Of a stretch of DNA of 64,000 bases, positions 1,952 through 48,158 are shown one piece after another (position 1 is the stretch's first letter; each line of letters starts with the position of its first letter). Under the pieces are notes generated by a model. The model ran no database searches. It worked only from the letters and a program-made list of their open reading frames with translations, and was not told the DNA's origin. The position numbers and the translations under genes are program-made. The stretch covers positions 789,698-853,697 of the forward strand of contig CP064975.1 of assembly GCA_016699425.1 (NCBI GenBank), in the 5' to 3' direction. This stretch comes from Candidatus Moraniibacteriota bacterium (GTDB lineage: Bacteria > Patescibacteriota > Minisyncoccia > Moranbacterales > UBA1568).

Positions 1952-2644
1952 ATGCCTGAACCAACCTGGCCAAAATCTGAAAAACCAGAGGAAGAACCGA
2001 GGGAGAAGCTCTCTGAAACCTTGCTTGGATATGACAATCCAAAAATGGCAGAAATCTTAGCCGAGACCGAGGAGGTCTTCAGTCACAATATAAGTGCTTC
2101 TAATGGAATGACGCATCTTTACGGCGATCTTGCCTACCCCCTTATGCCGCCAGAATTTGTGAGATTGCTCGATACCATAAAAGGAGAGGTACAGGGTGGA
2201 ATATTCGTAGATGCCGGATGCGGGAGTTCACCTGATGTACGAGCCGCCGGAAGACTCGGGATCAATAGAGTGGTAGGCATAGATCTTTTGTCACGGCCGG
2301 CCGATAGTCCTGACCCAAAAATTCAGCCCTATACTGAAGATGAGTTCTGGCAAGGGAAGACGATCCTTAAGATTGGAGATGAGATTACCAGAGGATTGGC
2401 TCGTATGAAATCGAGCATGGTTAATATAGTGCATATGCGAGCCCTGGATATTTTTTCAGGGGATGAAGAGCTTTGCCTCGATGAAATACACAGGGTATTA
2501 AAGGATGGTGGATATTTTATCCTCGACAGTAGCGGGAACTCTATATTCCGTAAGTTCGACCTGAATAAATTCGAGGAAGTTATCAATTATGGCGATGAAA
2601 TGAGAATACTCAAGAAAAAGACAATGGAAGATTTGGTTAAATAA
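1952..2644 (+). CDS. class I SAM-dependent methyltransferase (putative)
   Basis: motif I-like IFVDAGCGSS and post-I VLKDGGYFIL; start codon uncertain. Confidence 0.55.
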   Translation: MPEPTWPKSEKPEEEPREKLSETLLGYDNPKMAEILAETEEVFSHNISASNGMTHLYGDLAYPLMPPEFVRLLDTIKGEVQGGIFVDAGCGSSPDVRAAGRLGINRVVGIDLLSRPADSPDPKIQPYTEDEFWQGKTILKIGDEITRGLARMKSSMVNIVHMRALDIFSGDEELCLDEIHRVLKDGGYFILDSSGNSIFRKFDLNKFEEVINYGDEMRILKKKTMEDLVK

Positions 2645-2670
2645 TATTAATAAATCGAGAAAAATACACT

Positions 2671-3108
2671 ATGGCAACAATCAATCCTTATATTAACTTC
2701 AACGGAAATGCCGAAGAAGCGTTTACGTTTTACAAATCCATTTTCGGTGGAGAATTCGCTGGTATTACTCGTTTCAAAGACATAGCAAGCGCCGAGTTCC
2801 CAGTACCCGAAAATGAGGCAAATAAAATAATGCGCATTGCTCTGCCTATCGGCAAAAACATGTTAATTGCCAATGACGTTCCAGAAAGCATGGGACGGGT
2901 GAGCGAAAACGAGAACAGATCCAAAATAGCAGTCAGCGCAGAAAGCAAAGAAGAGGCCGATAGAATATGGAGCGGCCTTTCGGCAGGTGGGGCAGTCGAG
3001 ATGCCGATGGCAGAAAGCCCTTGGGGCACCTATTTTGCAATGTTTAGAGACAAATATGGCATTGAATGGACCGTGGAATTTGATCCAAAAAATAACGGAA
3101 AAAAATAA
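2671..3108 (+). CDS. VOC/glyoxalase superfamily protein (PhnB-like)
   Basis: N-terminus INPYINFNGNAEEAFTFYKSIFGG typical of PhnB/VOC family. Confidence 0.65.
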   Translation: MATINPYINFNGNAEEAFTFYKSIFGGEFAGITRFKDIASAEFPVPENEANKIMRIALPIGKNMLIANDVPESMGRVSENENRSKIAVSAESKEEADRIWSGLSAGGAVEMPMAESPWGTYFAMFRDKYGIEWTVEFDPKNNGKK

Positions 3109-16232: not shown

Positions 16233-16757
16233 CTATTTTCCCTTCTCATCCGGAATAAAGCGGAGTGCCGCACCATTCATACAATAGCGCCGTCCTGTCG
16301 GAGGCGGGCCGTCTTTGAAGACATGCCCGAGGTGACCACCAGCGGTCGACAAAACTTCCGTCCGCTCTATGAAAAAGCTGTCGTCGACACGCTCGATGAC
16401 CGCTTCGGGACGGATCGGACGAGTGAAGCTGGGCCAACCCGTACCCGAATCAAATTTGTCTTCCGAACGAAAAACTGGCTCGCCCGTATCAGCCGCGACA
16501 TACGTCCCGGATCGTTTCTCGGTATTCAGTGGGCTTGAAAACGGTGCTTCTGTCGCTCCCTCGCGCAGGATAGTGTACGCTTCCGGAGACAGTTTCCTGC
16601 GCCACTCATCTTCGGTCTGCCGTGGCTGATGTGAGAGCTCCTGCCGCACTTCCTGCGCCACCCGTCTAGTGTTCTGCCAATACCAGAACACTCCTCCCGC
16701 ACCGAGGCTGAGCAAAACCAATCCGACAATACAATATCTCATATATTTCAAAGACAC
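16233..16757 (-). CDS. msrB: peptide-methionine (R)-S-oxide reductase MsrB, membrane-anchored
   Basis: GWPSF...HLGHVFKDGPPPTGRRYCMN SelR motif incl. catalytic Cys. Confidence 0.9.
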   Translation of the reverse strand: MSLKYMRYCIVGLVLLSLGAGGVFWYWQNTRRVAQEVRQELSHQPRQTEDEWRRKLSPEAYTILREGATEAPFSSPLNTEKRSGTYVAADTGEPVFRSEDKFDSGTGWPSFTRPIRPEAVIERVDDSFFIERTEVLSTAGGHLGHVFKDGPPPTGRRYCMNGAALRFIPDEKGK

Positions 16758-16784
16758 GTGACTCTTCCTGGCTCAATGTCCTCA

Positions 16785-17558
16785 CTACGCTCGCAACCCA
16801 CGACCAGTTTTGAAGAGGTACCAGGTATAGCCGAAAAGACCAACCGTGAGTGTGATAAGGAGGCCAGCCGCAAAAGGCACGGAAACGTCTGAGACACCGA
16901 GGAAACCATAACGAAAACCGTTGATCATATAGAGGATCGGATTCCAATGCGAAACCGCCTGCCAAAATGGCGGGAGCATAGTCACTGAATAGAAAATCCC
17001 TCCGAGATAGGTCAGTGGCGTCAGAACAAAATTCGGTACGATGGAAATGCCATCAAAGCTGTTCGCAAAGACGCCATTGAGAAGCCCTACCATCGAAAAA
17101 AGAATCGAGGTAAGTAGCGCGAAGAGAAGCATGACGAGCGGATGAGCCATGGTGATGTCTGTGAAGAAGCTCGCCACCACCATGACGAGCGTGGCGATGG
17201 TCATGCCTCGCAGCACTCCGCCAGTGACATAGCCAGCGATGACGACTGGGTACGGTGTCGGCGAGACCATAATCTCTTCGAGTGTTTTCTGAAACTTGGC
17301 AAAGTAGAAAGACGAGACTGTATGCATGAATGAGCTCATGATGACTGACATCATGATCAGTCCGGGTACGATGAACTCCATGTAGGAATACCCGTTGATC
17401 GGTGCGATCTGCGAACCGATGAAGCCACCGAAGATGACGAAATAGAGCGACATCGTGACAACCGGCGGCAAGAGTGTTTGCGACCAGACCCGCAGGTATC
17501 GGATTGCTTCCTTACGGACAATCGTGAGATATGCTACCCAAAGTTCAGTCGAATTCAT
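16785..17558 (-). CDS. ABC-2 type transporter permease
   Basis: 6-TM ABC-2 architecture, directly downstream of ATPase. Confidence 0.8.
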   Translation of the reverse strand: MNSTELWVAYLTIVRKEAIRYLRVWSQTLLPPVVTMSLYFVIFGGFIGSQIAPINGYSYMEFIVPGLIMMSVIMSSFMHTVSSFYFAKFQKTLEEIMVSPTPYPVVIAGYVTGGVLRGMTIATLVMVVASFFTDITMAHPLVMLLFALLTSILFSMVGLLNGVFANSFDGISIVPNFVLTPLTYLGGIFYSVTMLPPFWQAVSHWNPILYMINGFRYGFLGVSDVSVPFAAGLLITLTVGLFGYTWYLFKTGRGLRA

Positions 17559-22401: not shown

Positions 22402-23610
22402 TTAACGTGGGAAGCCGCCCGAGCGATTACTGCCACCACCCGAACCCCGGAACAGATTGAGGATACTCCCTTGGCCAGCAGAAGTGCTACTGACTGAGGT
22501 GCTCACGGCAGCACCAGGGAGCTCAACCACGGTTCCTTCAGAAAGGCCGCTTACTATTTCAGTGACAGTGTCATTGGACAGTCCGGTGGAGATCTCCCGT
22601 TTCTCTCCAATCGACTGAGCTGTACTACTATTGGGCGTCTTCGGATTCTGATTCGCACCTCTATTAGTCTGCGGGCGGGTCCCATCCCCCATGACGGTCA
22701 CTACTGTCTTGCCGTCTGCGTTCGTGATAGCTGCATTCGGCACCACCAAGACACCAGATTTATCCGCCACACTGATATCAGCGGTTGCGCTCATGCCTGG
22801 CCGCAGCTCTCCCGGCTGCTGGTCGAGCTCGATTTCGGCCGTATACGAGACCACGTTCTGCGTCACCGTCCCGATAGTATCCAACTTCGACACCTTCCCC
22901 GAGATGGTGACATTGGGGAGCGCGACAAACGTCAGCTCGGCTGTGTTGCCCTCTTTCACCTTGGCCGCATCGACTTCATTGAGCTCGATGGAGACATGTA
23001 GTCGCTTCGTGATGACCGAGGCAAGGATACCAGTCTGGGATATCGTATCGCCGCTATCGACCGAAAGTCCCGTCACGATCCCATCAAAGGGCGCCCTGAT
23101 CGTATAATCCTGCAACTTATCGCGCATGTTCTGCAGGGCGATCTCGCTCTGCTTGACCGAGTCTGCGGCCAGCTGACGTTGGCGAGCACCATCCCGATCC
23201 AGTTTCGGATAGAGTTTATTCGTCTGTTTCGCCTTGATTTCCGTCTGATGCAAACTGAGCTCAGCGTTCACGACACTCCGACGGGCATCAGAATTGTCCA
23301 GGATAGCGATCACCTGACCCTTCGTCACTGCTTGATCATTTTGCACTGCCACTGTGGTCACTTCGATCGCGTCTCCCGCCACTACCGGTTTCAAATCAAC
23401 CTGAGAATCAGCTTCCACCTGGCCGCTCCCAGAGACGGTCACCTTCAAATCAGATCTCTCCACCCGTGCGGTACGGGGTGCGGACACAGTCGTATCTGTG
23501 CTGTTCGAACTTGATAGAAAAAAGTATCCACCATAAGCGACTATCCCGACAACAACCAGAGTCACAAACCAATGACTCCGCACATAGGATACTGACTGAG
23601 AAAGCTTCAT
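22402..23610 (-). CDS. efflux periplasmic adaptor (MacA/HlyD-like)
   Basis: N-terminal TM, coiled-coil, beta-barrel architecture. Confidence 0.75.
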   Translation of the reverse strand: MKLSQSVSYVRSHWFVTLVVVGIVAYGGYFFLSSSNSTDTTVSAPRTARVERSDLKVTVSGSGQVEADSQVDLKPVVAGDAIEVTTVAVQNDQAVTKGQVIAILDNSDARRSVVNAELSLHQTEIKAKQTNKLYPKLDRDGARQRQLAADSVKQSEIALQNMRDKLQDYTIRAPFDGIVTGLSVDSGDTISQTGILASVITKRLHVSIELNEVDAAKVKEGNTAELTFVALPNVTISGKVSKLDTIGTVTQNVVSYTAEIELDQQPGELRPGMSATADISVADKSGVLVVPNAAITNADGKTVVTVMGDGTRPQTNRGANQNPKTPNSSTAQSIGEKREISTGLSNDTVTEIVSGLSEGTVVELPGAAVSTSVSSTSAGQGSILNLFRGSGGGSNRSGGFPR

Positions 23611-28211: not shown

Positions 28212-28331
28212 GTGGTTAAAAATTTCTAATTACTCAATTTCTCATTTCTAAACAATTTCCAATGAAAGAAGTCTCGTATTGAAACATTGCTCCATTGTTT
28301 GAAGATTGTGAATTGAAACTTGAAAATTCTC

Positions 28332-32803: not shown

Positions 32804-33160
32804 TTACATGGTAATGCCTGCTCCTCGCACGGCTTCAGCGACAGCCTTCACCTTGCCATGATAGAGGTAGCCGGCCCGATCGAACACCGCCGCCTTCACA
32901 CCGAGCTTGACCAGACGTTCACCGAGAAGCTTACCGATCGCGCTCGCCTCAGCGACGGTATTCTTTCGCTTCTTACCGAGCTCGAGGAAATTGGCCTGAG
33001 CCAGGGTCTTACCCGCCTGGTCATCGATGGCTTGTACAGAGACGCCTCGGAGACTACGATGGACAGCAACCCGCGGACACGCTGGCGTACCGATTATCTT
33101 CGATCGAACTCTGACATGCCGCCGGATGCGCTTTTCGATTTTGTTCTGTAGCTTCTTCAT
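32804..33160 (-). CDS. rplR: 50S ribosomal protein L18
   Basis: RVAVHRSLRGVSVQ...AAVFDRAGYLYHGKVKA. Confidence 0.9.
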   Translation of the reverse strand: MKKLQNKIEKRIRRHVRVRSKIIGTPACPRVAVHRSLRGVSVQAIDDQAGKTLAQANFLELGKKRKNTVAEASAIGKLLGERLVKLGVKAAVFDRAGYLYHGKVKAVAEAVRGAGITM

Positions 33161-33176
33161 AAAGTTTCATTCTCAA

Positions 33177-33713
33177 TTAGGCCGCGGCTTTCTTGCCTTC
33201 TTTGTGCCGCACCTGCTCACCGACATAGCGGAAGCCTTTGCCCTTATACGGTTCGACGGGTTTGAGCTTCTTCACCACTGCGGCAAATTGTCCGACTTTC
33301 TGCTTGTCGAGGCCCGTTATCGTGAGCACATTATTCTCGATTTTCACTTCGAGACCATCTGGCACCTCCATCACCACAGGGTGAGAGAAACCCAGCGCAA
33401 GGGTCAGTTTCTTGCCAGCGGCCGTCATGCGATAGCCGACGCCATTGAGCTCCAACGCTCGAGAGAATCCAGTCGTCACACCTTCGAAGAGGTTCTTCAC
33501 GAGCTTGGCCATCGTCCCCCACATAGCGAGAGCCTGAAGTGAACTCCCCTTCTTCTCGATCGTGATCTGGCCGTCCGCGATCGTGATCGAGACGTCGAGC
33601 GTATGCGTCAGAGACAGCGTGCCCTTCGGACCCTTCACGGTCAACACGTTTGCGTGCAGTGAGGCTTCGCAATTGGCCGGGATCTGAAATGGCTTTTTTC
33701 CGATTCTACTCAT
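33177..33713 (-). CDS. rplF: 50S ribosomal protein L6
   Basis: MSRIGKKPFQIP. Confidence 0.9.
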   Translation of the reverse strand: MSRIGKKPFQIPANCEASLHANVLTVKGPKGTLSLTHTLDVSITIADGQITIEKKGSSLQALAMWGTMAKLVKNLFEGVTTGFSRALELNGVGYRMTAAGKKLTLALGFSHPVVMEVPDGLEVKIENNVLTITGLDKQKVGQFAAVVKKLKPVEPYKGKGFRYVGEQVRHKEGKKAAA

Positions 33714-33723
33714 AGTCGTGATA

Positions 33724-34128
33724 TTACCAGGCTTGGCAGATATATTCCCCTCCGAGTCGGCGCTTGTGCGCTGCGAGTCCAGTCATGAGTCCCTGAGAGG
33801 TCGAGATGATCGAGATGCCATAGCCGTTCTTCACTTTGACAACCTCATTCTGCTTCACATAGACACGGCGGCCCTCCTTGCTGATCCGCTCAATTTCCTG
33901 GATGGCCGGCTCACGCTTCGTGAGCGAAACCTGGCGATACTTCAAGCCGATGACCAGAGTCTTTCGGATGCCCTCTTCAATCACCTCCACGCTCTCGACA
34001 AAGCCTTCCGCCTTGAGAATCTCGGCGATCGCCAGTTTCATTCGGGAAGCCGGAAGAGCAACGCTCGGATGGCCGGCGCGCTGGGCATTCCTGATTCGAG
34101 TAAGCATTTCTGCGATTGGGTCTAACAT
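33724..34128 (-). CDS. rpsH: 30S ribosomal protein S8
   Basis: DPIAEMLTRIRNA. Confidence 0.9.
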   Translation of the reverse strand: MLDPIAEMLTRIRNAQRAGHPSVALPASRMKLAIAEILKAEGFVESVEVIEEGIRKTLVIGLKYRQVSLTKREPAIQEIERISKEGRRVYVKQNEVVKVKNGYGISIISTSQGLMTGLAAHKRRLGGEYICQAW

Positions 34129-34158
34129 AATCGAGTGTGATGTTTGAGGATCTCGTAA

Positions 34159-34344
34159 TTACCACGATGACTTCCGAACGCCTGGTATCTCGCCTTTGCT
34201 CGCGAGCTCACGGAAGCAGATGCGGCAGATATCGTACGCCCGGAGATACCCATGCTTCCGGCCACAGCGCCAGCAACGCCGCACGATCCGAGTCGAGAAC
34301 TTCGGCGTCTTCTGAGAGCGAGCGTAGGTCGATGTTTTTGCCAT
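34159..34344 (-). CDS. rpsZ: 30S ribosomal protein S14 type Z (zinc-binding)
   Basis: 61-aa [13 protein letters not shown]...[23 protein letters not shown]; ATG at 34344 within longer track ORF. Confidence 0.85.
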
Positions 34345-34355
34345 ATGCTTCGTGT

Positions 34356-34919
34356 TTAGTGTGAGGCTTCTTGGGTAACCGTCTGGAGTGGGAGACCGAG
34401 GGCACGGAACAGACATTCGCCAGCTGTTTTGTCTTTGGCGGTCGTGACAATCGTGACTTGGAAGCTGAAAACGGTCTGGACTTTTTCCGGAATGATTTCT
34501 GGGAAGACCATGTGTTCTTTGATACCGATATTGCAATTGCCATAGGTATCGACCGATCGGAGTGTGATGCCCTGGAAATCACGCACGCGCGGCAGGGCCA
34601 CATGGACGAGCCGGTCGAGGAAGTCCCACATCCGCTTGCCGCGTATGGTCACACGCATCCCGACTTCGAGCTCTTCACGGATCTTGAACCCGGCGATGGC
34701 CTTGCGCGCCTTGGTCGCGACGACCTTCTGCCCGGTGATCATCTCGAGTGACGAACGAATCTCTTCGATCCGGTTCGCCTCCTTGAGGAACTTGCCGACG
34801 CCCACGTTCACGACCACCCGGTCGATTTTCGGGAGTGCATTCGGATTCTCCGTTTTGAGGAGCTGCTTCAGCGCCGGGAGAGCCTTCTGTTCGTAATTTT
34901 TCTTGGTGAGGGATGACAT
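34356..34919 (-). CDS. rplE: 50S ribosomal protein L5
   Basis: conserved L5 blocks. Confidence 0.9.
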
Positions 34920-34923
34920 ATCG

Positions 34924-35232
34924 CTAGTTCAAATCTTTGCCGGATTTCTTACTGACGCGGACTTTCTCGGTGCCACTGACCCGGTACCCGACACGCGATG
35001 GCTTGCCAGTCTCCGGGTCAACGAGCATGACATTCGAGACATGGATCGGCATCGCCAGTTCCACACGCTCACCCTTTTCACCCGCTGTCTTAGCCTTGCG
35101 ATGACGCTTGCCCATATTCGCTCCTTCGACGATGACCTTATCGAGCGTCGGAAACACGCGAGACACGGTGCCACGCTTGCCCCGGTCCTTGCCGGCTATT
35201 ACTTGCACTTGGTCGCCTTTCTTGATCTTCAT
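34924..35232 (-). CDS. rplX: 50S ribosomal protein L24
   Basis: MKIKKGDQVQVIAGKDRGKRG; start at 35232. Confidence 0.85.
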   Translation of the reverse strand: MKIKKGDQVQVIAGKDRGKRGTVSRVFPTLDKVIVEGANMGKRHRKAKTAGEKGERVELAMPIHVSNVMLVDPETGKPSRVGYRVSGTEKVRVSKKSGKDLN

Positions 35233-35236
35233 AACC

Positions 35237-35608
35237 TTAGAGTACTTCAGGAGCGAGTGAGACGATTTTTGCGAATCCCTTTTCGCGCAGTTCACGGGCA
35301 ATCGGTCCGAAGATACGGGAACCCTTCGGATCCTGCGTCGTGCCTTCGAGGATGACGGCCGCGTTCTCATCGAAACGGATATAGGAGTTGTCCTTGCGAC
35401 GATGGGCGGTCCGCTGGCGGACGATGACTGCCTTTACCTTGTCACCCTTCTTCACGAGACCACGCGGCTCCGCGACTTTGACCGAGGCCACCACGATATC
35501 GCCGAGACCAGCATACCGGCGGCGTGTGCCACCGAGCACCTTGAAGCACTCGATGACTCGGGCCCCGGAGTTGTCTGCGACGATCAGTCTGGATTCTGCT
35601 TGGATCAT
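35237..35608 (-). CDS. rplN: 50S ribosomal protein L14
   Basis: [17 protein letters not shown]. Confidence 0.9.
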
Positions 35609-35628
35609 AGTCTAGTCTCAGGGAGCAT

Positions 35629-35889
35629 TTATTCAGCAATGACGATATGGTGTTTCTCTTTCGAAAGCGGGCGGCACTCGCGAAATGTCACCACCGTACC
35701 GAGCGCGTATTCCTTACCCTCCGTTTCCACCTTGTAGCGCTTCGTTGCTTGGTACTGTTTCTTATATTTCGGGTGCGTCTTGAGGGTCTCAACAGCGACC
35801 ACCACCGTGTTCTTCATGCGATTCGAAACCACCGTGCCTTTCCAGGTCGGGGTATTCTTCTGCTTACTGGTGTTCGGTGCTGTCGTCAT
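35629..35889 (-). CDS. rpsQ: 30S ribosomal protein S17
   Basis: GTVVSNRMKNTVVVAVE. Confidence 0.9.
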   Translation of the reverse strand: MTTAPNTSKQKNTPTWKGTVVSNRMKNTVVVAVETLKTHPKYKKQYQATKRYKVETEGKEYALGTVVTFRECRPLSKEKHHIVIAE

Positions 35890-35911
35890 ACACTTGTTAC
35901 ATTCATCGGGC

Positions 35912-36109
35912 TTAATCTTGTTTCATGCCTTCTTCACGCTCGAGCGTCAGGAGCCGGGCGATATCGCGCCGCGTTTTCCGATGCTCGCTGTGCTGCTTCG
36001 AAGCGCGTGTCGCGAGATCGAAACGGAGCACTCGCAGGCGATCACGGAGCTCGAGCAAGGTCTTCTCGCGCTCACCGACTGTTTTTTCCCGCCATTCTTT
36101 CGCTTTCAT
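35912..36109 (-). CDS. rpmC: 50S ribosomal protein L29
   Basis: [10 protein letters not shown]...; alternative start 36130. Confidence 0.8.
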   Translation of the reverse strand: MKAKEWREKTVGEREKTLLELRDRLRVLRFDLATRASKQHSEHRKTRRDIARLLTLEREEGMKQD

Positions 36110-36113
36110 ACGC

Positions 36114-36530
36114 TTATTCTTTGACAACAAATCGGCTCTTCACAGACAGTTTGTGGGCTGCGAGCCGCATCGCCTCAGCCGCTGTAGTTTTCGAGACACC
36201 ATCGAGCTCAAAGAGCATCCGACCAGCCGAAACCTTGGCCGCAAAATGGTCCGGCGTCCCCTTCCCCTTCCCCATCGGGACCTGCTCGCCCTTCTTGGTA
36301 ATCGGCTTATCTGGGAAAATACGGATCCAGACCTTGCCACCGCGCTGAATGAACCGGGTCATAGCCCGCCGCGCCGCTTCAATCTGACGAGCCGAGATGA
36401 TACCGCCCTCAGTCGCCTTCAGCCCGAAAGCGCCAAAGCTAATCTTGTCGCCACGCGACGCCACCGTACCAACGGGATTGTATCCGCGTTGGACTTTTCG
36501 GTGCTTCACTTTTCGGGGCATGAGGTTCAT
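36114..36530 (-). CDS. rplP: 50S ribosomal protein L16
   Basis: [13 protein letters not shown]. Confidence 0.9.
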
Positions 36531-36554
36531 AGCCGTCTTCTTCTGGTATCGAGA

Positions 36555-37224
36555 TTATTCTTCGGTCTTTTCCTTTTCTTCAAACTTCTCTCCCTTGTAA
36601 ATCCAAACCTTCACACCGATGACACCATAGGTTGTCCGTGCTTCATAGCGAGCGAAATCCACTTCAGAACGGAGCGTATGGAGCGGGATTTTCCCGCGGG
36701 ACAGCCACTCACGTCGGGACATCTCGGCACCACCCAGCCGGCCCGCGATTTCGATCTTTACGCCGAGGATAGCTTTGTTCGCTTCGACCTGGTCGAGCGT
36801 GCCCTTCAGGACGCGGCGAAACGGGGTGCGTTTCTCGAGCTGCTCCGCCACCTGCTGAGCGACAAGCATCGCGCTCTCTTCCATATACTTCACTTCCTGG
36901 ACTTCGACTTTGAGGTCGACTTTCTTGCCGGCAAAGAAACGCTTGCGGAGAACCCGGGTGAGGTCCTCAATCCCGGTACCACCGCGGCCGATGAGGACGC
37001 CCGGACGAGACGTCCGGATGATCAGCTTCATCATGCCCGTGGATCGCTCGATCTCAACTGAAGCGATGGCCGCGCTCTTCCACTGCCTCTGGATGAACGC
37101 TGCGCATCTCGACATCCTTCCGGAGATTGGTGCGGAGGCTCTTCTTGCTATCGGCAAACCAGCGTGACTGCCAGTCAGCGGTGATGCCGAGTCGAATTCC
37201 AGTTGGATTGGTCTTGTTTCCCAT
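36555..37224 (-). CDS. rpsC: 30S ribosomal protein S3 with apparent +1 frameshift near 37101
   Basis: ATG 37224 gives [41 protein letters not shown] then stops at 37054; rest of S3 ([19 protein letters not shown]...[13 protein letters not shown]) is in the +1 frame (track ORF 36555..37157). Confidence 0.8.
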
Positions 37225-37229
37225 AGCGC

Positions 37230-37682
37230 TTAGGCTTGCTTGTTTTCAGACTTCTTAACAGTTGTTGGTTTCTTGGCGGTCATCGTCGAAGTTTTGGCGA
37301 CCTTCTTCACTACTGCTTTCTTCGCGACAGCTTTCACCGACGCCTTCGGAGCACGCTCATCCAGGATGATATGGATTTTCGATGTCCGACGGAGGATCGG
37401 TGTCGCCTGACCAAATGCCTTTGGTGTGAAGCGCTTTAGCCGAGTACCGTCGAGCACACGGACTTCTTTCACGTACAGAGCCTCTTCGGCGAGTTTAAAA
37501 TTGTTCTTCGCGTTGGCGATGGCGCTCTTCAGAAGCACAGTAATCGGCTGAGAGCTCCGCTTCACCTGTCGACGGAGCTGGACGAGCGCCGCCGCGACAG
37601 GCAACCCCACAATCGAGTGGGTGACCAATCGCACCTTGCGAGGGGCGATGCGCAGATTGTTCAGCTTGGCTACAACGCGCAT
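37230..37682 (-). CDS. rplV: 50S ribosomal protein L22 (C-terminal Lys/Ala-rich extension)
   Basis: conserved L22 core. Confidence 0.9.
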
Positions 37683-37692
37683 AGAGTCTCAG

Positions 37693-38028
37693 TTATTTCT
37701 TGTCAGAACTTTTGGCGGCCTTCGCAGCATCGAGTTCACGTTGCTTGCCAGCGAGCTCGATTTCCTTCTGCATCTTGCCACCGTGGCGAGAGAACTTCCG
37801 CGTTGAAGAAAACTCGCCCAGCCGATGACCAACCATTTCTTCAGTCGCCAGCACGGGAATGAAGTCCTTGCCATTGTGAACACCAAAGGTAAAGCCTACC
37901 ATCTCAGGCGCGATGATGCAAGCACGCGACCAGGTCTTGATGACCGTGCGGTCGCCGTGTTTCCGTCCTTCGAGCTTCTTCAAGACTCTCGGGTCGACGT
38001 ATGGTCCTTTTTTGAGACTGCGTGACAT
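37693..38028 (-). CDS. rpsS: 30S ribosomal protein S19
   Basis: [12 protein letters not shown]...[13 protein letters not shown]. Confidence 0.9.
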
Positions 38029-38131
38029 AATTCTTGACTATCTACCAACAACCGACAACTGACGACAATGCTCCTCTCTGGATGACTCGGGCATTACGGT
38101 GAGTTGTAGGTTGTCGGTTGTATGTCGTTAG

Positions 38132-38959
38132 TTATTTCTTATTGCGGCGGCGAATGATGTACTGGTTGCTACGGTGCTTACGTTTGCGAGTTTTCTTACC
38201 GAGTGCCGGCTTCCCCCATGGTGTCTTCGGGTGCATACCAAGCGGCTGCCGACCTTCACCACCACCGTGCGGGTGATCGACCGGGTTCATGGCCGTACCC
38301 CGGACTGTCGGACGACGGTTCATGTGACGGGCGCGACCCGCCTTGCCGATACGCTCGGCACTGTGTTCAAAATTACTCACCTGGCCGATTGTCGCATAGC
38401 AGTCCTTTGGAACGAGACGGACCTCGCTCGAGGACAGTTTCACCTGCGCCATCGGTCCATCGAGCGCCATGAGGGTCGCCTGGGAACCAGCACTCCGGAC
38501 GATCTGTCCGCCCTTGCCGCGCTGCATTTCGATATTGCAGATGGTCGTACCAGCAGGAATATTGGAAAGCAGAAGTCGATTTCCAGGCGCGACCGGCGCT
38601 TCCGGACCCGACACAACCGTCTGCCCAGCTCGCATATCATGTGTCGCAAGGATATAGCGCTTTTCTCCGTCTGCATAGGTGAGAAGGGCAATCAAGGCCG
38701 AGCGATTTGGATCTTTCTCGATCGAGGCGATCTTTGCCGGGATACCGTGCTTGTCCTGCTTGAAATCGATCATGCGGTAGCGCCGTTTGGCTCCCCCGCC
38801 CTGGTGACGGACAGAAATTTTTCCGAGCGAGCGACCGGCTTTCTTCGGCAACGGGGCCAGCAATGTCTTTTCCGGTTTCTTGTCCGTCAAAGCATCCGGC
38901 TTCACGACTGACATGAAGCGGCGACCAGCAGTATTCTTTTTGTAGATCTTGATGGCCAT
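38132..38959 (-). CDS. rplB: 50S ribosomal protein L2
   Basis: [14 protein letters not shown]...HGGGEGR. Confidence 0.9.
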
Positions 38960-38963
38960 AGTC

Positions 38964-39305
38964 TTAGATACCGGCTTGGAATAACTGGATTGATTCGCCC
39001 TTCTTGAGCCGGACGAGCGCTTTTTTCACCGAACTCCGCTGACCGACCGTTCGGCCGAGGTTTTTACGCTTGCCCGGAAGGCGCACCATATTCACAGCGA
39101 TGACTGTGACACCATAGGCTTCCTCGACCGCCCGTTTCACCTCAGTCTTGGTCGCCGCACTTGCCACCTGGAATACATACTGGTCGAGCGCGTTCACAGC
39201 ATATGCCTTTTCGGTGATGCGTGGACGAAGCAATACGCGCGTCGCCAAGGACGAGAGTTGCTTCTCGACTTTCATTTCTTTGGTTGCGGTCGGTTTCGTA
39301 GCCAT
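38964..39305 (-). CDS. rplW: 50S ribosomal protein L23
   Basis: start at ATG 39305 (MATKPT...) downstream of rplD stop. Confidence 0.85.
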
Positions 39306-41287: not shown

Positions 41288-42478
41288 TTACTTGATGATT
41301 TTTGTCGCGACACCGGCACCGACGGTACGACCACCTTCACGGATAGCAAAACGCATACCCTCTTCCATGGCGACCGGAGCGATGAGCACGATCTTGAGTT
41401 TCACCGTGTCACCTGGCATGACCATTTCCGTCCCCTCCGGGAGGATGACTTCGCCGGTCACATCCGTCGTCCGAATATAGAACTGCGGCTTGTAGCCTTT
41501 GAAGAACGGGGTGTGACGGCCGCCTTCTTCCTTGTTCAGGATATAGACTTCGCCCTCAAATTCAGTGTGCGGAGTGATTGATCCAGGCTTGGCCAACACC
41601 TGGCCGCGCTCGACGTCTTCCTTTTTGATACCCCGGATGAGGAGACCGGCGTTGTCACCTGCCTGGCCACGGTCGAGTTGCTTGTTGAACATCTCGATAC
41701 CGGTCACGACCGTCTTGGCTGTGTCACGGATACCGACGATTTCGACTTCTTCGTTGATATTGACGACCCCCCGCTCGATTCGGCCAGTGACGACGGTTCC
41801 ACGGCCTTCGATGGAGAAGATGTCTTCGATCGGCATGAGGAACGCCATTTCTGTGTCACGGACTGGTTCTGGGATACGCTCGTCAAGTGCCGCGACGAGG
41901 TCGAGGATCGGCTTGGCATCGGCGTCATCGATTGACTTGGACTCAAGTGCCTTCAGACCACTCCCACGAATGACCGCGGCATTGTCGCCATCGAAATCGT
42001 ACTTGGAAAGAAGTTCGCGGACTTCGGCTTCGACGAGGTCGATAAGCTCGGCATCGTCCACCATATCCACCTTATTGAGGAACACAACGATGTTCTTCAC
42101 ACCGACCTGGCTCGCCAAGAGGATATGCTCACGCGTCTGCGGCATCGGACCGTCTGTTGCAGACACAACGAGAATCGCACCGTCCATCTGGGCGGCACCA
42201 GTGATCATGTTCTTGATATAGTCCGCGTGGCCAGGACAGTCGACATGCGCGTAGTGGCGTTTGTCGGACTCGTACTCACAGTGAGACGTCGAGATAGTGA
42301 TACCGCGCTCCTTTTCCTCCGGCGCCTTGTCGATCTCGTCGACACCTTTTTCCTTGGCAAAGCCCTTCATGGAGAGCACGTGAAGGATGGCGGCCGTCGT
42401 GGTCGTCTTACCGTGGTCGACGTGACCGATCGTGCCGACGTTTACGTGCGGCTTAGTTCGCTGAAATTGCTCTGCCAT
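41288..42478 (-). CDS. tuf: elongation factor Tu
   Basis: [26 protein letters not shown]; ATG at 42478 (track ORF starts at upstream GTG). Confidence 0.95.
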
Positions 42479-42798
42479 ACTGTTGACTGACACCCGAAGC
42501 CGTCTTTGACGACTTTCTTGTGTACATCATTAAGTAAATGATTGATTACGAAAAATTTTTCATTTTCCTGGTCCGTCCTCACCAACAGACAAAAACGGCT
42601 CAGGAAAGCGTCAATCAGGATAATAGCAAGGAGAAAAAATCCTGTCAACCCCAGCACCCTTTCTACAAAAAAATAGTCCCTTCTTCGTGTTTATGCCGTG
42701 AAGTGGCTATGCCTTTTGTCTTCAAATTACTCGAGATTCTCCTCTGAAATGGTGCGGGGTCAAGTCCAGCCCTGTTTCACGCCGTAAACCAGTCTTCC

Positions 42799-43221
42799 TT
42801 AGTATTTTCCAAAGGCCTTCAGGAGCGCATCACGACATGCCTTGCCGTGTGGCGATCCAGGGAAACCAGCCATTCTCCCTTCTTTTATACTTCCATCCGG
42901 GAGAGAAATAGTCGCAATGATTGTGTACACTTCTAATTCATCGGGTGGCATATATTGAAACTGAGCAGCGGCACCGGACGCAAGCGTATTGAGTGTCTTG
43001 GCTATTGCTTTCTTATCAAATTCTGTCACAACAACTCCTCTCTCAAAGAAGAGGTCACCCCCTGTCTCTGCTTGAGATTCGGACGGGAGTGCCTCGAGTA
43101 CTGCACCCGCCGCCGCAGCACCCGCTACCTTTAGAAATGTCCGCCGACTCATAACCGCTTTATCTTCCGGGGAAAGTTCCTTTTCTGTTGGAGCCGAGGA
43201 CACGCTCTCAAAACCTAGCAT
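42799..43221 (-). CDS. Tat-signal exported hypothetical protein
   Basis: SRRTFLKVAGAAAAGA twin-arginine motif. Confidence 0.55.
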   Translation of the reverse strand: MLGFESVSSAPTEKELSPEDKAVMSRRTFLKVAGAAAAGAVLEALPSESQAETGGDLFFERGVVVTEFDKKAIAKTLNTLASGAAAQFQYMPPDELEVYTIIATISLPDGSIKEGRMAGFPGSPHGKACRDALLKAFGKY

Positions 43222-43749
43222 AAGGAGGATTTTAGAAATTATCTACTTTCCTTATTCTACACCTCTTTCAGGTTCAATATGAATAGCCCCCTCATCACTC
43301 CACATATCCAAGACCAGTGATGCCCTGATGGCCCTTCTGAGTGGGATTTCCTGATTATTCTTAAATGAAGATCCCGCGGCGGCTGATGCCACACGCGGGA
43401 TATCGGAATTTCTTGCTGACTTTAATCTGGAAGCTACTCGATGAACATCCCATAATAGCCATCGGGAGCCACGCGGAACTGATGCGGGGCTTGTTTCGCC
43501 CCTCCTTCATATCCCCACACATAGGACGTCCGGGGTACCCATTCTTCCGCCCTCACCAGCTTTCCGTACCGCGTACACTCCTCCCATTCCCTGTCAGGAG
43601 TAAAGACGTACACGCAGTACTGAACACCCGTTTCCGGATGCGCCATAAACGCCAGTGAGATCAAGGATCGATATGTGAGGCGTTGCCAGTGCTCCTTTCT
43701 CATGCGAGCGATGAGTGTGAAGAAAGACGCTGGATAAATCGGGACAGTA

Positions 43750-44954
43750 GTTACCGTTACCTTTTCAGTTGATAGTAGGACGCTTTTTTTCAAAAAGTTT
43801 TACTGCTTCTACGCCTAGTTTTACTAATGTCTCAGGCCAGCGAGCCTGTTTTTTGATACTCAAAGAGAGTGAAGGGTAACCGTTCAAATATTTAAATTTA
43901 GCTTCACAATCTGTAAAAGGCTTGGTTCTCCTCCGTATCATCCACGCATTCAACCAACACTGAGCCGAAGCAAAACTCTGAAAACCCTTGATCGTCTTCA
44001 GCCTCCCATTGAGATGGGAATTGTAGAGTTCAATGAGATTGGTGTTGTTGGGACAGCCTGGCAGCAGCAAGTAATTGAAGAGTTCCTCCTGCCGGTACGC
44101 TATCTCACTTACGATGTTTTTGAGCAGACGTTTCTCTCTCTTGATGCTCGCGGCAAAAGATCGAATGGCGTTCGTCACATCCTCTCGTTCTCCAAACACG
44201 CTCTCCTTGAGAGCGTAAAAGAAGGGCCGGTATCGCTCTTCACTCCGCACCCGTAAAGCCACCCGGATATTCTCCAGGTAGTGGTTGTGGCAGAGCTGCA
44301 GCCGAGCCGACGGAAAAACCTTCAGGAGAGCCTTTTTCAGGCCAGAGCGGTCATCGGCGACCACGATCTGAAGATCATAGCCAAGTTGCTTCACTTGATG
44401 GAAGAAACGTGAGAAGGACACCTCATCTTCCGCTGTATACAAAGCCCCGAAGGGAATATCGTGGGTCAAGTAATCAATGCCGTAGAGAAAAGGAATCTTT
44501 CTCGCAAAGCCTTTGACCGCCACATACTTCCCATCCATGACAAGGATGCCCGAGAAGCGTCTCGGGTCACAGAGGGTTTGCGTCAGAGCGTCATTGGAAG
44601 GAAGTTGTGCTAATTCTCTTGTAACTCTCACGAAGGCTTGTTTTCCCGAGAGACCATATTCATCTCCTAATTTACGAAACGGTACCCCATCAATATGCTC
44701 GATCCACAGCAGTCTCGGATCATGCCCGAAGTAACGAGAAAAAGAATGTTCACAAGCACGACACAGGTAGTGATGGCTGTAGCCTTGGGAGCCATTCTTC
44801 ACCGTCTCACGACTGCTGCAGCGGGGACAGTGACGTGACCATTTTTTTTGACATGCTGAATGAAATTTAAGGCTTAAAGTCAACTTTACAGCCGGTTTGA
44901 GGCTCTAGTCTAACAAGAACAACACTTTCCATCAACTGAAAAGGTAACGGTATC
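43750..44954 (-). mobile_element. IS element (IS1/IS1595-like) with 24-bp terminal inverted repeats and 9-bp target-site duplication
   Basis: IRL 43750-43773 G[T]TACCGTTACCTTTTCAGTTGAT, IRR 44931-44954 reverse complement (1 mismatch); TSD GGGACAGTA at 43741-43749 and 44955-44963. Confidence 0.8.
43765..44883 (-). CDS. DDE transposase with N-terminal zinc ribbon
   Basis: CPRCSSRETVKNGSQGYSHHYLCRACEHSFS resembles IS1 InsA / IS1595 zinc finger; fills the IS. Confidence 0.7.
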   Translation of the reverse strand: MTLSLKFHSACQKKWSRHCPRCSSRETVKNGSQGYSHHYLCRACEHSFSRYFGHDPRLLWIEHIDGVPFRKLGDEYGLSGKQAFVRVTRELAQLPSNDALTQTLCDPRRFSGILVMDGKYVAVKGFARKIPFLYGIDYLTHDIPFGALYTAEDEVSFSRFFHQVKQLGYDLQIVVADDRSGLKKALLKVFPSARLQLCHNHYLENIRVALRVRSEERYRPFFYALKESVFGEREDVTNAIRSFAASIKREKRLLKNIVSEIAYRQEELFNYLLLPGCPNNTNLIELYNSHLNGRLKTIKGFQSFASAQCWLNAWMIRRRTKPFTDCEAKFKYLNGYPSLSLSIKKQARWPETLVKLGVEAVKLFEKKRPTIN

Positions 44955-45476
44955 GGGACAGTACGGCCGTCAGAAAACCTATCGGTCGTTACCTGCACGT
45001 AATAGTCACCGGCCACTGCTCCGTTAAAGCGATCTCGCACGCTTACAACGCATGTCTCTGCAGCGGGCAGCTGGTTATGTTTCACCAGTACATCCAGCAG
45101 GGCCACATCGGCGGCACTGAACGTAATTCCCGCCAAGGTAATCAAATCAGCGAGACTCCCCTGAAGACCCACGAAAGGCTCGATCAAATAGTCGCCAGAC
45201 GACATAGCAGCTCTCCCTCTTGGTTGGTGGTAAGGTTCTTCCCGTTCCGTAGTTTTACGGAAGTGCAAGATATCATAAAACTATTTCTCTAGGCAAACGC
45301 CCCACGCGTCCAAGAGAATCAAACAACTTTTTCGTACGAGTCAGAAATGCCCCCATTACAAAAAACTCGTCCTTTTTAATGAGCTCCCGACCTTGTCGGG
45401 CAGCAGGAGAGAGGCGATGTAAAAGCCCGGGAAGGACCCGGGCTTTTACGTACGCTGACTCAAATTTGCTGGAAAA

Positions 45477-47585
45477 TTATTTCTCTTCTTTGGCCGCTCC
45501 ACCCGTCTTGGCACCCATGATTTCTTCCGCCACGTTCCGTGGGACTTCCGCATAGTGAGCGAATTCCATGGAGTAGCTCGCCCGGCCCTGACTCATCGAG
45601 CGCATTTGAGTCGCATAGCCGAACATGCTGGCGAGCGGAACTTCGGCCGTTACTTCCTTCACACGCGCATTGCCCTCGCCCCGGTCGGTCATTTCCTTGA
45701 TGATGCCACGCTTCGCATTCAGGTCGCCGACGATATCGCCCATGAAGCTCTCTGGCATAATAACGGCGACTTTCATGATCGGCTCGAGGATGATCGGCTT
45801 GGCGCGCCGCATTGCCTCCTTGAAGGCAAGCGAACCGGCGATCTTGAACGCCGCTTCGGATGAGTCGACGTCGTGGAATGATCCGTCATAGACCGTCGCC
45901 TTCACATCGACGACCGGATAACCCGCCAAGACACCCGTCTGGGTCGCCTCTTCGATGCCCTTGTTGATCGGCTTGATGAATTCCTGTGGGATGACACCGC
46001 CTTTGGTCTCGTCGAAGAATTCATAGCCCTTACCCTGCTCATTCGGCTCGAGCCGGATCCAACAATGGCCGTACTGCCCGCGACCACCCGACTGACGGAC
46101 ATACTTGCCTTCGGCTTGAGCCATCTCACGAATTGTTTCACGATAAGCGACCTGCGGTCGACCGACATTCACTTCGACTTTGAATTCGCGACGCATGCGA
46201 TCGACGATGATATCGAGGTGCAGCTCGCCCATACCCGAGAGGATAGTCTGGCCCGAGTCTTCATCCGTGTGAACGCGGAAGGTCGGATCTTCTTCGGAAA
46301 GTTTCTTTAAGGCAACGCCCATCTTTTCCTGATCAGCCTTCGTCTTCGGTTCGACTGCGATATCGATGACCGGCTCCGGAAAGACAATGTTTTCGAGAAT
46401 CACCGGCGCTTCTGGATCACACAGCGTATCACCGGTCATGGTCGCCTTCATCCCAACGAGGGCACCGATATCACCAGCTGCGAGATCTTCGATGTCCTCA
46501 CGATGATTAGCATGCATCCGGAGGATACGACCGATTCGTTCCTTTTCATTTTTTGTGGAATTGAGGACATACGATCCAGCCTTGACCGTACCGGAATAGA
46601 CACGGAAAAAGGTGAGCTGGCCGACGAATGGGTCGGTCGCGACCTTGAACGCGAGCGCGGAAAATTTTTCGTTGTCGTCAGTCTTGCGCTCCACTTCCTG
46701 CTCGGTCTTGGCATCGATGCCCGTAACTGGTGGAATATCGACGGGTGACGGGAGATAATCGACGACCGCATCGAGCACGAGCTGAACGCCTTTGTTGCGG
46801 AGCGCCGTCCCCGTCATGACCGGATGGAGTCGGACCTCGATGGTTGCCTTACGCAGAGCCGCCTTCAGTTCCGGCACAGAGATTTCAACCCCCGAGAGGA
46901 ATTTCTCGGTCAGCGCATCATCGCTCTCGGCGATCTTTTCCACCATTTTCTCGCGCCACTCTTTGGCCTTCTCGGCGTATTCAGCCGGGACCTCGCTTTC
47001 AATTACCTTCTCACCCATCTCCCCTTCAAAGGTATAGGCCTTCATGGTCATGAGGTCGATGAGACCGTAAAAGTCCCCACGGAGGCCGAGCGGATACTGG
47101 ATCGCGACCGCGTTCGGCGTAAGACGATTCCAAATAGACGTCAATGCATCTTCGAAGACAGCCCCTTCCTTGTCGATCTTGTTGATGAAACACATGCGCG
47201 GCACTTTGTATTTTTCCGCCTGGCGCCAGACCGTCTCGGACTGCGGCTCCACGCCTTCCTTGCCATCGAACACAACCACACCACCGTCGAGGACACGGAG
47301 AGAGCGTTCCACTTCTACCGTAAAGTCCACATGTCCGGGTGTGTCGATGATATTGATATGGTGGTCCTTCCAGTAGCACGTCGTCGCGGCGCTGGTGATG
47401 GTGATACCACGCTCCCGCTCCTGCTCCATCCAGTCCATGGTCGCCTCACCTTCGTGCACCTCGCCGATCTTGTGCGTGATGCCAGTGTAGAAGAGGATAC
47501 GCTCAGTCGTCGTCGTCTTACCGGCGTCGATGTGCGCGATGATACCAATATTGCGATACTTCTCGATGGCGATTTTACGGGGCAT
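45477..47585 (-). CDS. fusA: elongation factor G
   Basis: [23 protein letters not shown], full five-domain length. Confidence 0.95.
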
Positions 47586-47690: not shown

Positions 47691-48158
47691 TTACGCGAAA
47701 TGAGCGAAGGCCTTGTTGGCTTCGGCCATGCGGTGCGTCTCATCGCGTTTCTTCATCGCCGAACCAATCTTGTTCGAAGCATCGATCAGCTCATCGGCGA
47801 GCTTGTTGGCCATCGACTTTCCCTTGCGGTTACGGCAAGCATCGCGGATCCAGCGCATAGCGAGGACTTGGCGCCGTTCGCCCGAAACTGGAACTGGGAC
47901 CTGATAGTTGGCCCCACCGACACGACGGCTCTTCAATTGGAGCAACGGCGCGACATTCTTGATGGCCTGCTCAAAAGTGTTGAGACCGGCTTTTTTGGTC
48001 CGCTCGGCGATGATATCAAACGCATCATAGATGATCCGTTCGGCCGTACTCTTCTTGCCCGCCCACATGATCATCCCGACAAAATGCCCCACGAGCGGGT
48101 TCCCGAAACGGGCATCCGCCTTCCATTCCTTATCAAACTGTCGTTTTCTCCGTGGCAT
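47691..48158 (-). CDS. rpsG: 30S ribosomal protein S7
   Basis: conserved S7 blocks. Confidence 0.95.
   Translation of the reverse strand: MPRRKRQFDKEWKADARFGNPLVGHFVGMIMWAGKKSTAERIIYDAFDIIAERTKKAGLNTFEQAIKNVAPLLQLKSRRVGGANYQVPVPVSGERRQVLAMRWIRDACRNRKGKSMANKLADELIDASNKIGSAMKKRDETHRMAEANKAFAHFA

What the first reader, a model, noticed from the sequence alone, without database searches (positions are those of the whole stretch)
37054..37224. Apparent +1 frameshift inside the essential S3 gene
The N-terminal 41 residues of S3 ([41 protein letters not shown]) are read from ATG 37224. The rest of S3 is in the +1 frame, in a track ORF that begins at TTG 37157. Skipping one base near 37101 (cgc-A-gcg) restores a colinear S3, with [24 protein letters not shown] matching E. 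coli [24 protein letters not shown]. The cause is either an indel error in the assembly or, far less likely, a real frameshift in an essential ribosomal gene.
Basis: seen in the sequence. Interest (0 to 1): 0.5.

Follow-up and report, generated by a model that had tools for sequence, protein, structure and literature searches.

The report
One-base insertion breaking the S3 gene
The ribosomal protein S3 gene in this Moranbacteria genome piece is split by one extra base that no other assembly of the same species has, so it is most likely a sequence-consensus error rather than unusual biology.

Summary
rpsC (S3) on the minus strand reads codons 1-42 from ATG 37224, then needs a +1 shift to continue to the stop at 36555. 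The repaired protein matches the bacterial S3 model end to end.

The lesion is private to this sequence. Ten independent assemblies carry the window's exact L16 protein, eight of them at 98.9-99.6% DNA identity. All have an intact 222-aa S3. Each of the eight alignments has exactly one gap, at window 37098 (AGC-G-TTC, not a homopolymer). More distant relatives are intact too.

Across about 23 kb compared with conspecifics, this is the only frame-breaking indel inside a gene. About 39 Pfam-matched ORFs look whole.

The extra base sits at S3's highly variable codon 42, at the edge of a 31-nt cluster of three private substitutions. The string CGCAGCGTTC is the unique shortest merge of two intact alleles: CGC AGC TTC (seen) and CGC/CGA GCG TTC (inferred).

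There is no slippery codon, rare codon, unusual RNA structure or conservation to support programmed frameshifting.

Best reading: a consensus or polishing artefact where two alleles were merged (about 0.8). A real private mutation stays possible (about 0.15). Only reads can settle it. Interest is low.

The parts
37099..37224 (-). rpsC (ribosomal protein uS3), 5' part: codons 1-42 in the frame of ATG 37224
   Evidence: tblastn places residues 1-42 here at 100% identity. In this stretch the window shows no difference that is private to it versus the conspecific loci L010-L018.
37098..37098 (-). The extra base: G on the minus strand, C on the plus strand, between AGC (Ser42) and TTC (Phe43). Removing A 37101 or C 37102 instead also restores the frame and gives Ala42.
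   Evidence: This is the only gap in each of eight blastn/MAFFT alignments to conspecific assemblies. The context CGCAGC-G-TTC is not a homopolymer. The alternative repairs are listed.
36555..37097 (-). rpsC 3' part: codons 43-222 plus stop, in the +1 frame. Contains the KH_2 and Ribosomal_S3_C domains.
   Evidence: Pfam PF07650 and PF00189. TIGR01009 positions 41-211. 99.4% identical to the repaired protein by tblastn.
37054..37056 (-). Premature TGA that ends the unshifted frame, 14 codons after the extra base
37068..37087 (-). Three substitutions private to the window: 37087 AAG>AGG (K46R, a codon used for only 2% of Arg here), 37074 AGT>AGC (synonymous), 37068 GCG>GCC (synonymous). Together with the indel they form a 31-nt divergent patch.
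   Evidence: 4 of the 8 private differences in 33114-38279 lie here. Poisson P about 2e-6, about 4e-4 after correcting for scanning; codon positions 2, 3, 3 in the S3 frame; codon usage.
37230..37682 (-). rplV (L22), upstream neighbour, intact
   Evidence: It has the same 150-aa length as in the conspecific loci.
36114..36530 (-). rplP (L16), downstream neighbour, intact. Its exact protein sequence was the handle that retrieved the conspecific assemblies.
   Evidence: 23 contigs read, indexed in 26 blocks of the collection.

Best explanation
This is an ordinary single-copy rpsC gene of a Candidatus Moranbacteria (Patescibacteria/CPR) bacterium, in its usual place between rplV and rplP. It carries one spurious extra base at codon 42.

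The most likely origin is consensus building or polishing over reads from two co-occurring alleles that differ at this variable codon. One allele is AGC (Ser), seen in all conspecifics. The other is GCG (Ala), the type seen in the next lineages. An aligner can represent the triple substitution AGC>GCG as 'delete A plus insert G'. If only the insertion is accepted, the result is CGC-A-GC-G-TTC, which is exactly the window's string.

The organism would then make a normal 222-aa S3, and nothing unusual happens at translation.

Shown here: the insertion is private, sits at a variable codon, abuts a private SNP cluster and equals the merge of two intact alleles. Inferred: the second allele existed in the reads, and the consensus step created the hybrid.
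For: 1. The insertion is private. Ten independent assemblies (JGI, two NCBI MAGs, Logan runs from several studies) carry the window's exact L16 next to an intact 222-aa S3. Eight of them are 98.9-99.6% identical to the window over 4.2-6.4 kb, with exactly one gap each, at 37098. The common conspecific S3, P0121 (on 18 contigs), is 221/222 identical to the window protein repaired by deleting the G.

2. More distant relatives are intact too. The truncated calls P0132 and P0125 are a start-codon choice by the gene caller and a contig end; their DNA is intact.

3. Residue 42 is among the most variable in this part of S3. It is E, A, S, Q, D, R, T, M, G or K among 78 of the 134 S3 homologs held.

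4. The indel sits at the 5' edge of three more private substitutions within 31 nt (P about 2e-6, or 4e-4 scan-corrected). Two of the three are synonymous in the true S3 frame, which suggests a second functional allele.

5. GAGATGCGCAGCGTTCATCCAG is the unique shortest common supersequence of the conspecific allele and a CGC/CGA-GCG-TTC allele. CGA, CGC and GCG each occur at these codons in relatives.

6. The inserted G does not duplicate the base before it (C) or after it (T). So it does not look like a replication-slippage product (the mutation-spectrum argument is from general knowledge).

7. S3 is a universal ribosomal protein, and only one rpsC locus exists in the window. A fixed null allele is therefore implausible (general knowledge).

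8. Long-read assemblers are reported to collapse related strains into one consensus, and indels are reported as a main cause of broken ORFs (PMC8302730).
Against: No reads are available, so the error is not demonstrated.

The assembly is otherwise clean. There is no other frame-breaking coding indel in about 23 kb compared with conspecifics, and the roughly 39 Pfam-matched ORFs cover most or all of their profiles. A generally noisy assembly therefore cannot be blamed.

The site is not a homopolymer, the usual place for sequencing indels.

The postulated second allele (Ala42 plus Arg46) was not found. It is absent from the 15-billion-protein collection, from genome contigs and from metagenome contigs.

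The window's other divergent patch, in rplW, is a genuine natural allele seen in four other assemblies. So the private differences of this strain can be real.
Confidence: 0.8

Rival explanations
1. The insertion is a real, recent mutation in the sampled strain or a subpopulation. It would be a null or crippled rpsC allele caught in the assembly, for example created at the imprecise edge of a short recombination tract imported from a divergent lineage. It would persist only transiently, or beside a wild-type majority.
For: The assembly is otherwise accurate: no other frame-breaking indel in about 23 kb. The strain is a genuine mosaic. The 28-SNP patch in rplW (39072-39189) is confirmed in four other assemblies, one of them 100% identical to the window. 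The S3 patch could therefore also be an imported tract, with the indel at its boundary.
Against: S3 is a universal ribosomal protein, and the shift at codon 42 removes 180 of its 222 residues from the frame. No second copy exists in the window. A consensus sequence normally reflects the majority genotype, which could not be a null in this gene. Neither the broken fragments nor this allele were seen in any other assembly. The inserted G is not a duplication of a neighbouring base.
Confidence: 0.15
2. The gene is decoded by programmed +1 ribosomal frameshifting at CGC-AGC-G, as in prfB, so the cell makes full-length S3 from the interrupted gene.
For: The required shift is +1, and an SD-like GGAAGGA lies 12 nt upstream of the AGC codon, or 9 nt upstream of CGC. 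The 0-frame ends soon after, at a TGA 14 codons downstream.
Against: No relative has the interruption, including eight assemblies at 99% identity or more. Programmed sites are conserved, so this counts heavily.

There is no slippery P-site codon. CGC to GCA, and AGC to GCG, cannot re-pair. No stop or rare codon follows. CGC is the commonest Arg codon (30%), AGC makes up 14% of Ser and GTT 14% of Val.

The SD-like element encodes the conserved LRKDVE and is equally present in the intact genes. Its spacing is not the 3 nt of prfB (general knowledge).

Local RNA folding is unremarkable (z = -1.2), and the intact conspecific sequence folds at least as well. No report of programmed frameshifting in rpsC was found.
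Confidence: 0.02
3. S3 is made as two polypeptides that assemble on the ribosome. One is the 56-aa N-terminal piece. The other is a C-terminal piece started at ATG 37115 or TTG 37157.
For: Both ORFs have start codons, and the C-terminal ORF keeps the KH and S3_C domains.
Against: No relative is organised this way. The ATG at 37115 directly abuts the GGAAGG motif, leaving no spacer for a ribosome-binding site. The split removes the first four positions of the KH_2 domain model and 40 positions of the S3 model from the C-terminal piece. It would add 15 and 5-19 foreign residues to the two pieces.
Confidence: 0.01

Closest known systems
Bacterial ribosomal protein uS3 (rpsC; TIGR01009, Pfam KH_2 + Ribosomal_S3_C) of Candidatus Moranbacteria, e.g. 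P0121 = NCBI MGB3073197.1 / MGB4833925.1
   Same: After removing one base the protein is 221/222 identical to P0121. It matches TIGR01009 end to end at 244.9 bits. It lies between rplV and rplP in the conserved ribosomal-protein gene cluster, as in all relatives.
   Different: There is one extra base at codon 42 and a K46R change through the rare AGG codon. The reading frame is interrupted only in this sequence.
Consensus or polishing indels in metagenome assemblies of mixed strains (collapsed haplotypes)
   Same: It is a private single-base indel. It lies at a strain-variable site, sits next to a cluster of private SNPs and equals a merge of two alleles. Strain collapse and indel-caused frameshifts are documented for such assemblies (PMC8302730).
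   Different: It is not in a homopolymer, and the rest of the assembly shows no comparable errors. The sequencing and assembly method of the source is unknown.
prfB (release factor 2) programmed +1 frameshift, CUU UGA C with an upstream SD-like element
   Same: A +1 shift early in an essential translation gene, with an SD-like sequence upstream.
   Different: There is no slippery codon, no in-frame stop or hungry codon at the site, the SD spacing is wrong and there is no conservation. This site fails every tested defining feature.

Membership tests
Bacterial ribosomal protein uS3 (rpsC) | KH type-2 domain followed by the S3 C-terminal domain | tested here: met
   PF07650 (E 3e-16) and PF00189 (E 4e-29) on the repaired protein. 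Both are also present in the 200-aa ORF.
Bacterial ribosomal protein uS3 (rpsC) | Full-length match to the equivalog model TIGR01009 above its cut-off | tested here: met
   Repaired protein: 244.9 bits against a cut-off of 114.5, model positions 1-211 of 212. The unrepaired 200-aa ORF covers only positions 41-211.
Bacterial ribosomal protein uS3 (rpsC) | Position between rplV (L22) and rplP (L16) in the conserved ribosomal-protein gene cluster | tested here: met
   Window ORFs show the same order as L003, L007 and L009-L018.
Bacterial ribosomal protein uS3 (rpsC) | Single uninterrupted reading frame | tested here: not met
   The frame changes at 37098. It is intact in all relatives examined.
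Programmed +1 ribosomal frameshift site (prfB type) | The interruption is conserved among relatives | tested here: not met
   It is absent from 10 assemblies carrying the window's exact L16 and from all more distant Moranbacteria S3 genes examined.
Programmed +1 ribosomal frameshift site (prfB type) | A P-site codon whose tRNA can re-pair in the +1 frame (e.g. CUU U) | tested here: not met
   The sequence is AUG CGC AGC G UUC. Neither CGC to GCA nor AGC to GCG re-pairs.
Programmed +1 ribosomal frameshift site (prfB type) | A stop codon or rare, slowly decoded codon in the A site | tested here: not met
   CGC is 30% of Arg, AGC 14% of Ser and GTT 14% of Val among 6,539 codons of window genes. 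There is no stop at the site.
Programmed +1 ribosomal frameshift site (prfB type) | A site-specific stimulatory element (a closely spaced SD-like sequence, or an RNA structure) | tested here: not met
   GGAAGGA is present, but it lies 12 nt upstream of AGC (9 nt upstream of CGC). It encodes conserved residues and is identical in the intact genes. Folding z = -1.2, no better than the intact conspecific sequence.
Assembly or consensus indel artefact | Private to one assembly; absent from independent assemblies of the same population or species | tested here: met
   The junction string is absent from genome contigs. The metagenome contigs pattern found neither the broken nor the intact junction. 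The fragments are absent from the gene and protein collections.
Assembly or consensus indel artefact | Located where co-occurring alleles differ; the sequence can be explained as a merge of alleles | tested here: inconclusive
   The indel is at the variable codon 42, with a flanking private SNP cluster and the unique-supersequence property. However, the second allele itself was not found anywhere.
Assembly or consensus indel artefact | The reads do not support the consensus base | not testable with these tools
   No read data are accessible.

The most novel reading that the evidence does not exclude
The extra base is real and fixed in this Moranbacteria strain, and full-length S3 is still produced. 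That would require either an unconventional +1 recoding event at a non-slippery CGC-AGC-G site or a two-piece S3. Either would be a new way of expressing a universal ribosomal protein in a reduced-genome CPR bacterium.
Probability: 0.02. Interest if true: 0.7.

Novelty: not a real feature. Interest (0 to 1): 0.07.

Why it matters
As biology it matters little. The gene is an ordinary rpsC, and the interruption is most likely a one-base consensus error.

It has some practical value:
- The gene would be annotated as a pseudogene or as two fragments. S3 is a standard single-copy marker, so this lowers completeness estimates and drops S3 from ribosomal-protein phylogenies.
- It is a clean worked example of a non-homopolymer indel at a strain-variable codon in an otherwise accurate assembly.

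Only if reads proved the base real would it become interesting, as recoding or splitting of an essential ribosomal protein.

Tried and rejected
1. A shared frameshift in relatives was rejected. All relatives are intact.

2. A second frameshifted lineage was suspected from the truncated S3 proteins P0132 (181 aa, 8 contigs) and P0125 (183 aa), which start exactly at the junction. This was rejected. The L019-L023 DNA is intact and the gene caller simply chose Met-40 behind an SD-like GGAAGGA. P0125 is cut by a contig end.

3. A generally error-prone assembly was rejected. There is no other frame-breaking coding indel in about 23 kb. Overlapping same-strand ORF pairs turned out to be separate genes or shadow ORFs. 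About 39 ORFs have Pfam matches covering most or all of their profiles.

4. The source or an independent copy of the broken gene was not found. The exact junction is absent from genome contigs. A pattern allowing either the broken or the intact junction found nothing in metagenome contigs. The 56-, 186- and 200-aa fragments are not on record.

5. The inferred donor allele was not found, either as DNA or as protein, full-length or Met-40-start.

6. I tried to recover this strain's S3 from other samples using its private L23 allele. This found the strain: L032 and L029 are 100% identical to the window. The contigs end before S3.

7. The S7 protein (47691-48158) as a handle for conspecific DNA was not on record. 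The region above 40.7 kb therefore could not be compared.

8. No stimulatory RNA structure and no Rfam hit at gathering threshold in the window.

Full report
**What is there**

On the minus strand, ATG 37224 opens the S3 gene. The first 41-42 codons give [41 protein letters not shown](S). This frame then runs into 14 unrelated codons and a TGA at 37056-37054. The remainder of S3 ([18 protein letters not shown]...) is in the +1 frame, inside the ORF 37157..36555.

A tblastn of the repaired protein finds a single locus in the window, split between two frames at residue 42. The 200-aa ORF carries KH_2 and Ribosomal_S3_C but covers only positions 41-211 of the bacterial S3 equivalog model TIGR01009. 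The repaired protein covers positions 1-211 of 212 at 244.9 bits. The neighbours are L22 upstream and L16 downstream, the usual order.

**Whose genome**

S3 homologs place the window in Candidatus Moranbacteria/Moraniibacteriota (Patescibacteria, CPR). The 120 best hits listed are intact proteins of 215-229 aa.

**Is the interruption shared?**

It is not.

- The lineages at 87-95% protein identity (L001-L008) are intact. At the junction they read ATG CGG GCG TTC, CGC GCC TTT or CGT TCC TTC.
- The window's exact L16 protein occurs on at least 23 contigs from independent assemblies. The sources are JGI 3300045395 and 3300045389, NCBI MAGs GCA_049645545.1 and GCA_049662085.1, and Logan runs from several studies.
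- In all 10 places returned, the adjacent S3 is an intact 222-aa gene.
- Eight of these loci are 98.9-99.6% identical to the window over 4.2-6.4 kb, so they are conspecific. Each alignment contains exactly one gap, at window 37098.
- All ten read ATG CGC AGC TTC ATC CAG AAG. The window reads ATG CGC AGC G TTC ATC CAG AGG.
- The common conspecific protein P0121 is 221/222 identical to the window protein repaired by deleting that G.

Two truncated S3 entries in the same 90% cluster, P0132 and P0125, begin exactly at Met-40 and briefly suggested a second disrupted lineage. Their DNA is intact. The gene caller preferred Met-40, which lies 7 nt behind an SD-like GGAAGGA, and P0125 is cut by a contig end.

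**Is the assembly error-prone?**

It is not. Over window 16,364-39,531, compared with conspecific assemblies, four places show indels:

| Location | Nature |
|---|---|
| 37098 | the S3 base; the only frame-breaking indel inside a gene |
| 28212-28321 | intergenic, between adk and secY |
| 16656-16786 | a divergent gene start plus spacer; net change a multiple of three |
| 22630 | in-frame 3-nt indel |

Pfam scans of 40 ORFs between 8 and 56 kb gave matches for about 30, and those matches cover most or all of their profiles. Suspected split pairs were separate genes or shadow ORFs. The lesion is local, not part of general noise.

**Anatomy of the lesion**

- The extra base is not in a homopolymer and does not duplicate either neighbour. 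It is a G inserted between C and T.
- It falls in codon 42, among the most variable residues in this part of S3. Residue 42 is E, A, S, Q, D, R, T, M, G or K among 78 of the 134 S3 homologs held.
- Three further substitutions private to the window follow within 31 nt, at 37087, 37074 and 37068. Together with the indel they make up 4 of the 8 private differences in about 5.2 kb. For the three substitutions, the Poisson P is about 2e-6, or about 4e-4 after correcting for scanning.
- In the true S3 frame the three changes are one conservative replacement (K46R) and two synonymous third-position changes. That is the signature of a second, functional allele and not of random error. The Arg codon used, AGG, is rare here at 2% of Arg codons.
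- The window string GAGATGCGCAGCGTTCATCCAG is the unique shortest common supersequence of two alleles. One is the conspecific allele (...CGC AGC TTC...). The other is an allele reading ...CGC GCG TTC... or ...CGA GCG TTC....
- CGA, CGC and GCG each occur at these two codons in related lineages.
- Deleting G, A or C all restore the frame, giving Ser42 or Ala42.

**Most likely mechanism (inferred)**

Reads from two alleles that differ by the triple substitution AGC>GCG were merged into one consensus. An aligner can write that substitution as 'delete A, insert G'. Accepting the insertion but not the deletion gives exactly CGCAGCGTTC, while the downstream positions take the second allele's bases.

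Long-read assemblers are reported to collapse related strains into one consensus, and indels are reported as a main cause of broken ORFs (PMC8302730). I could not find the second allele. It is absent from the protein collection and from both contig collections. This step therefore remains an inference.

**Rivals**

*A real private mutation* cannot be excluded. The strain is a genuine mosaic. A 118-nt patch in rplW carries 28 substitutions but only about 6 amino-acid changes. That patch is confirmed as a natural allele on four other contigs, and one of them, from SRR11674038, is 100% identical to the window. The S3 patch could likewise be an imported tract with an imprecise edge. However, a frameshift at codon 42 of a universal, apparently single-copy ribosomal protein should not be the majority genotype.

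*Programmed +1 frameshifting* fails every tested criterion. There is no conservation, no re-pairing P-site codon and no stop or rare A-site codon. CGC is 30% of Arg, AGC 14% of Ser and GTT 14% of Val. The upstream SD-like motif is equally present in the intact genes, and its spacing is wrong for prfB-type stimulation. Folding is not unusual (z = -1.2), and the intact conspecific sequence folds at least as well. I found no literature precedent for rpsC.

*A two-piece S3* has no support in any relative and lacks a proper ribosome-binding site for the C-terminal piece.

**Verdict**

My probabilities are:

| Explanation | Probability |
|---|---|
| consensus artefact | about 0.80 |
| real private mutation | about 0.15 |
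| recoding or split protein | about 0.03 |

The decisive test is a read pile-up at 37090-37110 in the source data or in SRR11674038 and SRR11674051. Interest is low.

Noticed in passing
window 42799-45268 (minus strand), between fusA (45477-47585) and tuf (41288-42493): A Mutator/IS256-type transposase with an N-terminal zinc ribbon (43765-44883; PF00872 E 2e-11) and three ORFs (44867-45268 and 43434-43793 with no family match; 42799-43221 with a TAT signal) interrupt the normally adjacent fusA-tuf pair. The conspecific NCBI MAG contig JBARUC010000065.1 ends at about window 42.9 kb, right next to this insert. That fits a repeat that short-read assemblies cannot span.
   Followed up: partly
window 39072-39189 (rplW / L23 gene): There are 28 substitutions in 118 nt relative to conspecifics that are 99% identical elsewhere, but only about 6 amino-acid changes. 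The allele is real: it occurs on four other contigs, and L032 is 100% identical to the window. No sampled lineage matches the patch better than 83%, so it looks like a short recombination tract from an unsampled relative.
   Followed up: yes
window 38029-38131 (spacer between rplB and rpsS): A 103-nt spacer is present in the window and in L010-L012 and L014-L016. It is absent from the 96.7%-identical relatives L009 and L013, where L2 and S19 are 5 nt apart. It may be a small insertion or a regulatory element. It has no Rfam hit.
   Followed up: no
L019-L023 (Logan SRR305022xx / SRR30502325), S3 gene at locus 2381-3046: Public gene calls start S3 at Met-40 (P0132, 181 aa, on 8 contigs) although the full 220-aa frame is open. 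The internal GGAAGGA-N7-ATG mimics a ribosome-binding site and misleads the gene caller.
   Followed up: yes
L024:1-60 (JGI 3300045379 contig Ga0490030_015629): The contig begins with about 30 nt that encode [10 protein letters not shown], a downstream part of S3. These are joined directly to ...EMRSFIQ at the junction region, so the contig end looks chimeric at the same spot in another assembly.
   Followed up: no
window 37087 (codon 46 of S3): The private K46R change uses AGG, which makes up only 2% of Arg codons in window genes. That is unusual for a highly expressed ribosomal-protein gene. No other held S3 homolog has IQRQW.
   Followed up: partly
window 28212-28321 and 22630: The adk-secY intergenic spacer is indel-rich compared with L026. 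There is also a 3-nt in-frame indel in the HlyD-like gene (22402-23610) relative to L026 and L027.
   Followed up: no
protein P0126 (NCBI MFA9262059.1): An S3 from this Moranbacteria 90%-identity cluster is labelled 'Undibacterium sp.' in an NCBI MAG. This is probably bin contamination.
   Followed up: no
window 1-64000: No Rfam family reaches its gathering score anywhere in the 64 kb. There are no matches to tRNA, rRNA or ribosomal-protein leader families.
   Followed up: no
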